Positions 32,901-34,595 of a stretch of DNA of 64,000 nucleotides are shown in pieces. The position numbers and the translations under genes are program-made. The notes under the pieces are model-generated. The model did no database searches, was not told the origin of the DNA, and saw only the letters and a program-made list of their open reading frames with translations. Position 1 is the first letter of the stretch. Every line of letters starts with the position of its first letter. Origin of the DNA: Mytilus edulis (taxonomy: Eukaryota); assembly GCF_963676685.1 (NCBI RefSeq), contig NC_092347.1, positions 13,950,001 through 14,014,000 on the forward strand, read 5' to 3'.

Positions 32901-34595
32901 TTTGGCACTGTATATTAACTAGCAATTTATTACATTGGTCAGTACAAACAAATCTTTAAAACACACAACCCACGTGATCCAAGCAATTAAAAAGACTAAT
33001 ATTGACTACAGGTGAAGGTGCCATACCTGTAAGTGAGTTACCAGATGATAGACTACATAAGATGTCTTGTAGTGACAAGATCTGTAAATGGAATGTACTT
33101 GGACTCCAAGGTGCTCTCTTGTCCACTGTAATAGACAGACCACTCTTTCTTTCCTCTGTAGTTGTTGGTAAGTAAATAGAAATAATCAACACACCTCTTT
33201 ACTTGCCTACACTTGTATTCTTTTTGTAAATAATAATATTCTTATTGTAAAAGAAACAAAAAAAACAAATTTTGGTCATAGCCATACAGACACAAAACAA
33301 ACATAAGAAAAACTCAGCAATATTAAGAAACATGTTATTGGTCTCCTTTCCTAAGTTCTAATGACTTTTGATAAAAGAAACAACTGCCAAATGCCAAGTA
33401 AGCGGTTATGAATGCAAATTCAATTACAGAATAAAAACTGAATATATTTCAGGGTTGCCGATTTGCTTTCAAAAATAGATCAGAATAGAGTAAAACTTCG
33501 AAGTAAGTTATGTATCTATGAACAAATAAAAGGAAGAAGTAGGGCATACATAAGAAAGACTGCAAGCCAACGACACTTTGAGCCAAGTATTTTTTACTAT
33601 CTTCACCAAACGGCAATACAAATCAAATCGTGATTTTGGTAAATTAAACAATAACCGTGGAGGTCTGATATCAACATTATATTCTCTGATGGCCATAGAC
33701 ATTGAAATATAACTATAGAAATATTTTTTGTTATGTCTTTTAAATTAGGTGATGTCTACAATTTTAATCATTTGTCCAGAGCTTTGTGCTGTCGAGTAAA
33801 GAGACAGTCTCCGTGTATATCTAGCGAAACGAGCGCCGTAACAGTTAATCACCCAGACATTGCTATATCTACTATTTGTGATTTACCTGAGATAGGAAAA
33901 TCAAAGCCAGTAAGTGTGAACTGGAACATTGTTGATGGCTCCACTGAAGTTACGAATGGTAGAACTGGAAAAGTTAGCCCTGATTTATATTTAAAGTAAG
34001 TCTTTCACTACAAACTTTATAACAAACGACATTTGGAAGAACAGAAGAGTTGGTTCTCACAATGTTTTTTTTTTAATTTATTTAGCAAGAACAATTCATT
34101 TTTTGATATCTTTAATGACCATTCATAAAATCGAAGAAGATGTTAATCTCGTGTACATGTGATGTGATCTGAACTCTAGTATATTTTTTTCAACATTTTC
34201 TAATGACCAACACTATCTTGTACAATACAATTATATACACGTTGAACTAGTCGATTTTCATTCTTTTAATTGTCAAATAAAGATGAAGCCACAATTTTTA
34301 TTTTTATAATTATTTTAGGTCACCGCCATCAGATTCGTGTATTTATTCAAGATTGTGCAAGAAAGAACTGTTTTGTCTGTATAAAACAATGACATCAAGA
34401 CAACCCAATTACGAAAGTTGTTATCGACGACTGAGGGACAGCCATATAATGATAGACAGACATATCAATTACCATGAGGCAAAACTATCATCTGAACAAT
34501 ACCAAAGAAGAAAAACTGATTTGTACCGTACTTTTATTGAGAAAGGTTATGGTATATGGGAAGAGAGAGAAGATGTCGATGAGTTTAGTCTTTAG
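10873..34595 (+). CDS. HEPN-(TRADD-N-like)x2-acidic repeat-dsRBD-ADAR1-type adenosine deaminase fusion gene (paralog B), 1089 aa if exon 30216-30354 is skipped
   Basis: Exons 10873-11434, 15443-15736, 16745-16978, 18180-18637, 21246-21364, 21790-21934, 23377-23483, 23870-24014, [30216-30354], 31172-31349, 31739-31832, 32325-32486, 32677-32768, 33012-33167, 33749-33995, 34319-34595. All introns are GT-AG with compatible phases. The total is 3270 nt without the bracketed exon. ATG 10873 (aacATGG) has an in-frame TAA upstream at 10852. Confidence 0.75.
11874..11904 (+). repeat. (GATA)n microsatellite
   Basis: About 7.5 perfect GATA units. Confidence 0.95.
15443..16978 (+). CDS. Two related phase 1-1 exons (15443-15736, 16745-16978), each encoding a TRADD-N-like alpha/beta module
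   Basis: Open exons with canonical splice sites share the motif (E/T)GSL(I/V)LxF/V followed by an amphipathic helix ([13 protein letters not shown] / [13 protein letters not shown]). The family call is by pattern recognition only. Confidence 0.55.
17001..17660. mobile_element. Helentron/Helitron-like non-autonomous element
   Basis: Starts tACTAGaacacacgcgaaatcgcggg (short hairpin) and ends tttaatagtatagat, with an internal (TA)n. The terminal style resembles rolling-circle-derived elements. Confidence 0.45.
18239..18622 (+). repeat. Coding minisatellite, 8 x 48 bp ([16 protein letters not shown] consensus), inside exon 18180-18637
   Basis: Eight in-frame 16-aa units are visible in ORF 18032..18649. 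The exon is bounded by TTTTCGTACCAG| and CAA|GTAAGT. Confidence 0.9.
19778..20239 (+). repeat. Intronic minisatellite, 11 x 42 bp
   Basis: Head-to-tail units gtttactttctacctagtaaggtacatagaatgctaagaaat with no spacers. Confidence 0.95.
20395..20559. mobile_element. Short MITE-like element (related element at about 21554-21705)
   Basis: GC-rich island with inverted ends cagtggcggatcc ... ggatccgcctatg. Confidence 0.55.
21246..21934 (+). CDS. dsRBD 1 (exons 21246-21364 and 21790-21934)
   Basis: [12 protein letters not shown]...EY...[17 protein letters not shown]...[23 protein letters not shown] contains the canonical GPxH and KKxAxxxAA motifs. Not in the ORF track. Confidence 0.92.
23377..24014 (+). 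CDS. dsRBD 2 (exons 23377-23483 and 23870-24014)
   Basis: [11 protein letters not shown]...KY...[17 protein letters not shown]...[20 protein letters not shown]. Same phase-2 intron position as dsRBD 1; the KKxA motif is degenerate. Confidence 0.88.
24129..27778. mobile_element. Kolobok-like DNA transposon remnant, 3.65 kb, TTAA target duplication
   Basis: TTAA|AGGGAAACTTCGC...attatgttcat on the left and atgaacataat...GCGGAATTTCCCT|TTAA on the right (TTAA at 24125-24128 and 27779-27782). RR..YY termini with TTAA fit Kolobok. No intact transposase. Confidence 0.7.
29040..29194. repeat. Long imperfect palindrome (foldback of about 155 bp)
   Basis: aacagtactgta..gaagagttgccaccgtcaatt..gatttgacggtcgcaaat..ttttactg pairs with cagtaaaa..atttgcgaccgtcaaatc..aattgacagtggcaactcttc..tacagtactgtt. 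Confidence 0.9.
30216..30354 (+). CDS. C-terminal half of a third dsRBD (phase 2-0 exon); partner N-terminal exon not found
   Basis: [35 protein letters not shown] between TTTTCAG| and ACG|GTTAGT. Confidence 0.7.
31172..34595 (+). CDS. ADAR1-type adenosine deaminase (editase) domain, 7 exons
   Basis: HYDELAM...ASIIM...VLSLGSGN...[17 protein letters not shown] (HAE 31798-31806), [12 protein letters not shown] (PC 32455-32460), [38 protein letters not shown] (SCSDK 33065-33079), [19 protein letters not shown], and the C-terminal Y-K-Y-K-W pattern. Confidence 0.95.

What the first reader, a model, noticed from the sequence alone, without database searches (positions are those of the whole stretch)
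33012..33079. Deaminase lacks the conserved TWDG dimerization helix
Seen: GEGAIPV is joined to [10 protein letters not shown] by only six residues (SELPDD) within one exon. Established: human ADAR2 has 16 residues here, including T501-W502-D503-G504, the helix that mediates asymmetric deaminase dimerization on dsRNA and is shared with ADAR1. The base-flipping Glu (GEG) is retained. Inference: the enzyme is monomeric at the catalytic domain, or dimerization has been handed to the N-terminal HEPN, which would couple the two activities.
Basis: partly seen in the sequence, partly recalled or inferred. Interest (0 to 1): 0.7.

Follow-up and report, generated by a model that had tools for sequence, protein, structure and literature searches.

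The report
Mussel ADAR lacking its dimerization helix
Mussels carry an extra, expressed copy of the RNA-editing enzyme ADAR1 that keeps its catalytic residues but has lost the short helix by which these enzymes pair up, along with the residues that helix docks on, so it likely works unpaired, a natural test of whether pairing is needed for editing.

Summary
Exon 33012-33167 joins GEGAIPV to [10 protein letters not shown] by six residues; human ADAR2 has 16. RNA reads confirm the splicing. The gene is a Z-alpha-less ADAR1 paralog with three dsRBDs. The same 10-residue gap is in its tandem twin, in five Mytilus species and in a 60%-identical relative. The genome's ordinary ADAR1 and ADAR2 keep T(W/F)DG, and oyster and clam paralogs keep TxDG. 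New here: the receiving face is lost too (T490A, R590P, E485A in ADAR2 numbering), while zinc ligands, E396, E488 and R510 stay. Best reading: a catalytic domain that cannot form the ADAR asymmetric dimer and likely edits unpaired (0.5). Main rival: a weak or dead dsRNA binder (0.3), since R376 is also lost and D1023 mutation abolishes human ADAR1 editing. The HEPN idea is not supported. The HEPN exons are an inverted duplicate of the neighbouring sacsin-like gene's 5' end, found in this copy only, and the annotated protein has no HEPN. An in-frame splice path exists but no read supports it. Other helix-less ADAR paralogs occur in gastropods and Hydractinia.

The parts
33012..33167 (+). Deaminase exon with base-flipping Glu (33014-33016), Ala at position 490 (33020-33022), R510 (33050-33052) and zinc Cys516 (33068-33070)
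33032..33049 (+). Six-residue linker SELPDD in place of the 16-residue stretch that holds the TWDG dimerization helix (10-residue in-frame gap)
32677..32768 (+). Exon with second-zinc His, KQG, R481, K483 and Ala in place of E485 (32762-32764)
31172..31349 (+). First deaminase exon; K350 replaced by Ser
31739..31832 (+). Exon with N375, Ile in place of R/K376 (31744-31746), Phe at 377, D392, H394, E396
32325..32486 (+). Exon with PCGD (zinc Cys451)
33749..33995 (+). Exon with second-zinc Cys-Cys and His, Pro in place of R590 (33886-33888), G593, K594
34319..34595 (+). Last coding exon; IP6-pocket Tyr, Lys and Trp residues; stop codon
21246..30354 (+). Exons for three dsRBDs (approx. 21246-21364, 21790-21934, 23377-23490, 23871-24014, 28413-28547, 30217-30354); dsRBD2 and dsRBD3 lack the KKxAK lysines
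10761..18637 (+). Inverted duplicate of the 5' exons of the neighbouring sacsin-like gene (HEPN_DZIP3 exon 10876-11434; further exons near 13253, 15443, 16745, 18180), lying where the twin copy has the end of ADAR exon 1 and exon 2
9906..10750 (+). 5' end of this ADAR copy (first coding exon near 10684-10750), broken off at the HEPN segment
1..1359 (+). 3' end of the tandem twin ADAR copy (exons 487-733 and 1083-1359); its gap-bearing exon lies 93-248 bases before the window; it has no HEPN segment

Best explanation
This is an expressed mussel ADAR1 paralog (three dsRBDs, no Z-alpha) whose deaminase has lost the TWDG helix and the residues that helix docks on, so it is predicted not to form the ADAR asymmetric dimer and likely deaminates dsRNA as an unpaired catalytic domain with changed site choice. 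Shown: the 10-residue gap; loss of T490, R590 and E485; retention of H394, E396, C451, C516, K483, the GEG flipping loop, R481, R510, K594, most of the IP6 pocket and the ADAR1 second zinc site; spliced mRNA. Inferred: in ADAR2 the dimer serves to place the second subunit's last dsRBD on the RNA. Here that dsRBD has lost all three KKxAK lysines, so the dimer likely had nothing to deliver and both faces decayed. RNA would be anchored in cis, mainly by dsRBD1, and editing would be limited to duplexes that need no auxiliary subunit. The HEPN segment is a recent, copy-specific insertion that plays no part in this.
For: Gap against human ADAR1 and ADAR2. Both sides of the published contacts are gone: D503 with T490, E485 with R590, and the helix backbone with R590 (PMC7641318 passages; residues). 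Across 197 domains, T490 is kept in 161 of 169 rows with the helix Asp and 3 of 28 without; R590 in 143 of 151 and 2 of 24 scored; E485 in 168 of 169 and 10 of 28 (rows are kin, not independent events). Oyster, clam and pearl-oyster paralogs keep TxDG, E485 and R590. 17 of 17 core catalytic and flipping residues are identical in this protein, in P0280 and in ADAR2, against 228 of 381 positions overall between the two mussel-type proteins (set chosen). The AlphaFold2 model folds the short linker with pLDDT 85-90 and no helix of four or more residues between E496 and C514; its best structural match is human ADAR1. Spliced, stranded reads cover all seven deaminase exons. ADAR2 D503A still edits a GLI1-type duplex.
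Against: No activity or oligomer state was measured. A review states that mutating D1023 abolishes human ADAR1 editing (PMC12907492), though ADAR1 D1023A still edited GLI1 in cells. T490, R590 and K376 also contact RNA, and T490A harms base flipping, so their loss fits decay of activity as well. K350, C377, G380, N391, T448 and T513 also differ (19 of 97 well-conserved columns differ in all four mussel-type rows). ADAR3 keeps its zinc centre yet is inactive. dN/dS between the tandem twins is 0.88 (7 synonymous, 22 non-synonymous changes), with no sign of purifying selection at that depth. Oyster paralogs have a partly degenerate last dsRBD yet keep the helix, which weakens the 'nothing to deliver' step.
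Confidence: 0.5

Rival explanations
1. It is a weak or dead deaminase that binds dsRNA and competes with, or tunes, ADAR1 and ADAR2 (ADAR3-like); the helix and RNA contacts decayed together because catalysis no longer matters.
For: R/K376 to Ile/Val, T490A, R590P, K350S, C377F and N391I. The stem branch is long, 0.98 changes per column. ADAR1 editing depends on D1023. Twin dN/dS is 0.88. Inactive ADAR-like proteins exist in molluscs (squid, PMC10278661).
Against: The inactive squid protein has lost C451, C516 and E396, and this genome's ADAD exon has no GEG. Here all of these, plus E488 and R510, persist across 40% divergence. M. gigas paralogs also have Cys at 376 and Phe at 377 while keeping the helix, so those two changes are tolerated in the clade. 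Two of three dsRBDs have lost lysines, which is odd for a pure binder.
Confidence: 0.3
2. The protein is an active dimer held by another surface, most likely its lysine-poor dsRBD2 or dsRBD3, with two independent active sites.
For: Human ADAR1 dsRBD3 dimerizes without the deaminase, and type-B dsRBDs dimerize in PACT and TRBP (PMC11582362). dsRBD2 and dsRBD3 here lack KKxAK.
Against: The human dsRBD3 interface Trp (W768) has no counterpart in the mussel dsRBDs, judged by eye against the bird ADAR1 row. There is no direct evidence of binding.
Confidence: 0.12
3. It is an acceptor-only subunit: canonical ADAR1 or ADAR2 docks its helix in this protein's active site and borrows its three dsRBDs.
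For: The dimer is asymmetric, so a helix-less chain could still be the auxiliary one (PMC11334849). Mussel ADAR1 has only one dsRBD. G452, F457, R481, E488 and G593 are kept.
Against: T490 and R590, which receive the helix, are lost, and the last dsRBD lacks its RNA-binding lysines.
Confidence: 0.05
4. One reading: an N-terminal HEPN is fused to the ADAR and has taken over dimerization, coupling RNase and editing.
For: HEPN_DZIP3 ORF upstream on the same strand (E 1.9e-6). A GT-AG path from the HEPN exon into the dsRBD exons is stop-free over 603 codons. Another M. edulis gene model, P0005, joins three later exons of the segment, though not the HEPN exon, to an ADAR.
Against: The gap is shared by HEPN-less copies and so predates the insertion. 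The only longer database relative of the HEPN exon is a sacsin-like protein that maps exon by exon onto the neighbouring minus-strand gene. The annotated protein for this copy lacks HEPN. Depth was zero over 10948-11421 in 4 of 4 runs and no fusion joint was listed, though the 5' ADAR exons were also thinly covered.
Confidence: 0.03

Closest known systems
Bivalve second ADAR1 paralog (Rosani et al. 2019, PMC6651903; one C. gigas ADAR1 gene, CgADAR1v, is virus-induced)
   Same: Three dsRBDs, no Z-alpha, ADAR1-type deaminase; groups with oyster, scallop and clam short paralogs (SH-aLRT 92; 84/77 and including a bryozoan row).
   Different: Oyster, pearl-oyster and clam members keep TxDG, E485 and R590; scallops have a longer, altered linker. 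That the short oyster paralog is CgADAR1v is my inference only: Arg459 fits, but the paper lists Arg376 where the M. gigas rows here have Cys.
Human ADAR1 (PDB 9B83, 9B84, 9B89)
   Same: Best sequence and fold match; N375, KQG loop, second zinc site (His, Cys-Cys, His), three dsRBDs.
   Different: No Z-alpha; no TWDG helix; counterparts of R376, T490, E485 and R590 replaced.
Human ADAR2 asymmetric dimer (PDB 6VFF; Thuy-Boun 2020, PMC7641318)
   Same: Zinc ligands, E396, GEG loop, R481, R510, K594, most IP6 ligands.
   Different: Helix 501-509 absent and receiving residues changed; a natural equivalent of a helix deletion, where only point mutants were in the passages I read.
Extra ADARs of gastropods and chiton (P0024, P0114, P0116, P0111) and of Hydractinia (P0295, P0296)
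   Same: No TWDG and no R590; gastropod and chiton rows have T490A; Hydractinia has the same linker length.
   Different: Different linker sequence, no second zinc site, R376 kept; a separate clade in the best tree (100/98), though one origin with the mussel paralog is not rejected (AU p 0.38).
Inactive ADAR-like proteins (ADAR3, ADAD, squid sqADAR/D-like)
   Same: Extra paralog with lost RNA-contact residues.
   Different: ADAD-type proteins lose zinc ligands and E396; ADAR3 keeps the helix and has Gln for R510. This protein shows the reverse pattern.

Membership tests
ADAR | dsRBD(s) plus A_deamin domain | tested here: met
   P0269: A_deamin E 2.5e-68, three dsrm stretches
ADAR | Zinc ligands H394, C451, C516 and proton shuttle E396 | tested here: met
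ADAR | IP6 pocket | tested here: met
   R401, K519, W523, Y658, K662, Y668, K672, W687, D695, K483, D392 kept; R400K, R522K, K690R conservative; N391I changed
ADAR | Base-flipping loop G-E-G and R510 | tested here: met
ADAR | TWDG dimerization helix (conserved feature, not in the family definition) | tested here: not met
   10-residue gap
ADAR | A-to-I activity on dsRNA | not testable with these tools
   needs an enzyme assay
ADAR1-type deaminase | Asn375, no Arg455, KQG loop, second zinc site, intron inside G487 as in this genome's ADAR1 | tested here: met
   the His/Cys positions of the second zinc site are recalled, and its existence is
Canonical ADAR1 ortholog | Z-alpha domain | tested here: not met
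   none in P0269, P0271, P0280; present in P0162
Canonical ADAR1 ortholog | Falls in the canonical ADAR1 clade | tested here: not met
   canonical clade 98/91 excludes it; the genome has a separate ADAR1 on C7
Bivalve second ADAR1 paralog | Clade with oyster, scallop and clam Z-alpha-less paralogs | tested here: inconclusive
   grouped in three trees but never starred: 87, 92, 84/77
Bivalve second ADAR1 paralog | Induction by virus or dsRNA | not tested
   runs are coded and untreated/treated status is unknown
ADAD / ADAR-D-like pseudoenzymes | Loss of zinc ligands or E396 | tested here: not met
   all retained; this genome's ADAD is a separate gene on C6
HEPN-ADAR fusion protein | HEPN and deaminase on one transcript | tested here: inconclusive
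   splice path open; no joint in 4 runs at low depth; annotated protein lacks HEPN
HEPN-ADAR fusion protein | HEPN co-occurs with the helix loss | tested here: not met
   twin copy and all other helix-less proteins fetched lack HEPN

The most novel reading that the evidence does not exclude
Mussels evolved an ADAR1-type editor that is fully active with no deaminase dimer: helix and receiving pocket were both removed, every active site is free, and it hyper-edits long (for example viral) dsRNA as a monomer. It would be a natural counter-example to the view that ADAR1-type enzymes need the TWDG helix, and extra ADARs of gastropods and Hydractinia may have done the same.
Probability: 0.3. Interest if true: 0.7.

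Novelty: new variant of a known kind. Interest (0 to 1): 0.48.

Why it matters
Whether ADARs must dimerize through the TWDG helix is open: point mutants of human ADAR1 and ADAR2 lose editing at many sites but not at all. This gene is an expressed natural deletion of the whole helix with its docking residues and an intact catalytic set, next to helix-keeping relatives in oysters and clams and an ordinary ADAR1 in the same genome. One assay separates an unpaired editor from an ADAR3-like decoy. An active unpaired ADAR1-type domain would interest RNA-editing tool builders and students of bivalve antiviral editing.

Tried and rejected
Complex prediction of two deaminase domains (P0006 residues 325-720): no verdict (score 0.00 in 2 of 2 runs, controls not folded, alignment not used); not used as evidence. 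Run search on 10600-20500: no RNA holder listed. Assembly error or hidden exon as the cause of the gap: rejected. Gap shared by ordinary invertebrate ADAR1: rejected. HEPN as cause or compensation: rejected on distribution. Independent origin from the gastropod and Hydractinia losses: the best tree needs 3 changes, but the AU test does not reject one clade, so convergence is not shown. My first helix-Asp count mis-scored rows with one extra residue and was redone. A recalled engineered C377F variant of ADAR2 was not found in print (0 papers) and is not used. Identity of the short oyster paralog with CgADAR1v could not be fixed; the paper's alignment file (MOESM1 .aln) cannot be read here and may already show the Mytilus gap. 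Look-ups of earlier findings returned nothing.

Full report
Observation. The + strand at 33012-33079 encodes [23 protein letters not shown]. The exon is 33012-33167 with GT-AG introns on both sides. RNA reads show the joint 32768>33012 in 3 of 4 runs and 33167>33749 in 4 of 4, cover all seven deaminase exons on the expected strand in the stranded runs, and list no insertion in this exon. Those reads may come from either tandem copy; in run X18, 27 of 397 laid reads were 99% or more alike. HMMER alignments of a 92%-identical M. galloprovincialis protein (P0006) to human ADAR2 and ADAR1 place a 10-residue gap over the TWDG stretch.

What the gene is. The closest proteins are Mytilus ADAR-like proteins with three dsRBDs and no Z-alpha. 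The genome holds ADAR2 on C2 (TWDG), ADAR1 on C7 (TFDG), ADAD on C6, an ADAT1-like gene on C5, and two tandem copies of this gene on C4, 33 kb apart, both with the short linker. The deaminase is ADAR1-type: Asn375, KQG loop, the His/Cys-Cys/His second zinc site (positions recalled), an intron inside G487 as in the C7 ADAR1 but not ADAR2, and best sequence and fold matches to human ADAR1. Trees built without the linker columns put the mussel-type rows in one clade (100/100) outside canonical ADAR1 (98/91), beside the Z-alpha-less paralogs of oysters, scallops and clams with unstarred support (71, 37 and 40 rows chosen from 244). Rosani et al. 2019 describe two ADAR1 subclades in bivalves and a virus-induced oyster gene, CgADAR1v (PMC6651903; passages, sections 5 and 6, supplement 2). 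I could not prove which subclade CgADAR1v belongs to.

Distribution of the gap. Of 244 aligned domains, 197 could be parsed: 167 have 24-27 residues from 490 to the zinc Cys, and 11 have 16, namely ten rows of this paralog and one Hydractinia-type protein. Five named Mytilus species and an unnamed transcript contig 60% identical in the deaminase (P0010/P0280, likely another mytilid) share the length. Oyster, pearl-oyster and clam paralogs keep TxDG; scallops have a longer altered linker. So the gap is a mytilid-type trait of this paralog, not an ordinary invertebrate ADAR1 feature. It is not unique, though: extra ADARs of gastropods and a chiton, of Capitella and of Hydractinia also lack TWDG. 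The best tree needs three changes, but one origin for the mussel, gastropod, chiton and Hydractinia rows is not rejected (AU p 0.38).

Both faces of the interface are gone. In the ADAR2 dimer, D503 contacts T490, G452, R455 and R481 of the second subunit; R590 pairs with E485 and the helix backbone (PMC7641318 and PMC11334849, passages). Here T490 is Ala, R590 is Pro and E485 is Ala in all mussel-type rows examined, while the other bivalve paralogs shown keep E485 and R590. Over 197 rows, T490 is kept in 161 of 169 with the helix Asp and 3 of 28 without; R590 in 143 of 151 and 2 of 24; E485 in 168 of 169 and 10 of 28. These rows are related, so this is a pattern, not a p-value. The dsRBD next to the deaminase, which the auxiliary subunit lays on the RNA in ADAR2, reads LQRAE in place of KKxAK. 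AlphaFold2 (92-row alignment) models the short linker at pLDDT 85-90 as strand, short turn, strand, with no helix of four or more residues.

Is it active? For: H394, E396, C451, C516, K483, D392, K519, the GEG loop, R481, R510 and K594 are unchanged across 40% divergence (17 of 17 in a set chosen after seeing the data, against 228 of 381 overall). The inactive squid protein has lost C451, C516 and E396 (PMC10278661, passages). ADAR2 D503A and ADAR1 D1023A still edit GLI1. Against: R/K376, an RNA contact (PMC11120146 table), is Ile or Val; T490A harms flipping; 19 of 97 well-conserved columns differ in all four mussel-type rows; a review says D1023 mutation abolishes ADAR1 editing and that ADAR3 is inactive with its zinc centre intact (PMC12907492, passages); and the twins differ by 7 synonymous and 22 non-synonymous changes (dN/dS 0.88). 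I put an active unpaired domain at 0.5 and a weak or dead binder at 0.3. A dimer through lysine-poor dsRBDs, as for human ADAR1 dsRBD3 (PMC11582362, passages), stays possible at about 0.12.

The HEPN. The ORF at 10855-11451 is HEPN_DZIP3. DNA from 9906-10750 matches the twin's 5' end. From 10761 it matches, inverted, a region 15 kb beyond the window's end, and the twin match resumes near 19356. The one longer database relative (1 hit among 1719 candidates) is a 1626-aa M. coruscus sacsin-like protein, which maps exon by exon along the minus strand from that HEPN exon into the sacsin ORFs of this window. The segment is therefore a duplicate of the sacsin-like gene's 5' exons, placed in one ADAR copy with loss of ADAR exon 2. 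Against: a 655-aa M. edulis protein (XP_071166839.1) ends with this copy's deaminase letter for letter and begins at the first dsRBD. Four RNA runs had zero depth over 10948-11421 and no fusion joint, while two ADAR-internal joints were seen in 2 of 4 runs (low depth, 93% cut-off, weak evidence). Decisively for the mechanism, the gap is shared by HEPN-less copies and so came first.

Novelty. Searches for ADAR with the dimerization helix or TWDG, for bivalve ADAR1 and for ADAR, Mytilus, paralog, dimerization and deletion listed no paper whose title or abstract start reports this gap. I read passages of eight papers only (PMC9989829, served as background), most subscription journals are not searched, and the unreadable alignment file of PMC6651903 may show the gap. 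The paralog itself is probably a known kind; the helix-less, pocket-changed form appears undescribed. Verdict: real, new variant of a known kind, interest 0.48; HEPN coupling unsupported.

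Noticed in passing
window 10761-18637 (+) and G000:C4 about 5-16 kb beyond the window end (-): A recent chimeric locus: the 5' exons of a sacsin-like gene (HEPN_DZIP3 and following) are duplicated, inverted, into one ADAR copy with splice phases that allow a read-through fusion; expression not seen.
   Followed up: partly
window 40515-59887 (-), continuing beyond the window: Large sacsin-like gene (3724-codon exon, C-terminal HEPN) whose model in M. coruscus begins with a HEPN_DZIP3-like domain, so it may have HEPN-type domains at both ends. 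Another sacsin-like gene lies 34-65 kb upstream of the window.
   Followed up: partly
P0024, P0114, P0116, P0111, P0207, P0295, P0296: A well-supported clade (100/98) of extra ADARs from gastropods, a chiton and Hydractinia lacks TWDG and the second zinc site but keeps HAE, PCGD and GEG; gastropod and chiton rows have His at 392.
   Followed up: partly
P0031, P0033, P0133, P0145: Scallop-type paralogs have Gln at 490 and a lengthened, altered helix region, suggesting the interface is loosening in that lineage too.
   Followed up: no
P0281, P0288, P0294 (Magallana gigas): The short oyster paralog has Cys at 376 and Phe at 377, unlike the Arg376 listed for both oyster ADAR1 genes in PMC6651903 Table 2.
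   Followed up: no
window 18235-18615 and 19778-20239: Tandem repeats: a 48-base coding repeat in the inserted segment's last exon and a 42/84-base intronic repeat shared with the twin copy.
   Followed up: no
L005 and L006 (G000:C6 and C1617): The ADAD gene appears twice with identical exons, on a chromosome and on a small contig; possibly a haplotype duplicate.
   Followed up: no
P0230, P0255, P0208 (unnamed): ADAR2-clade proteins with short linkers (17-19 residues in P0230 and P0255) and no TWDG; origin unknown.
   Followed up: no
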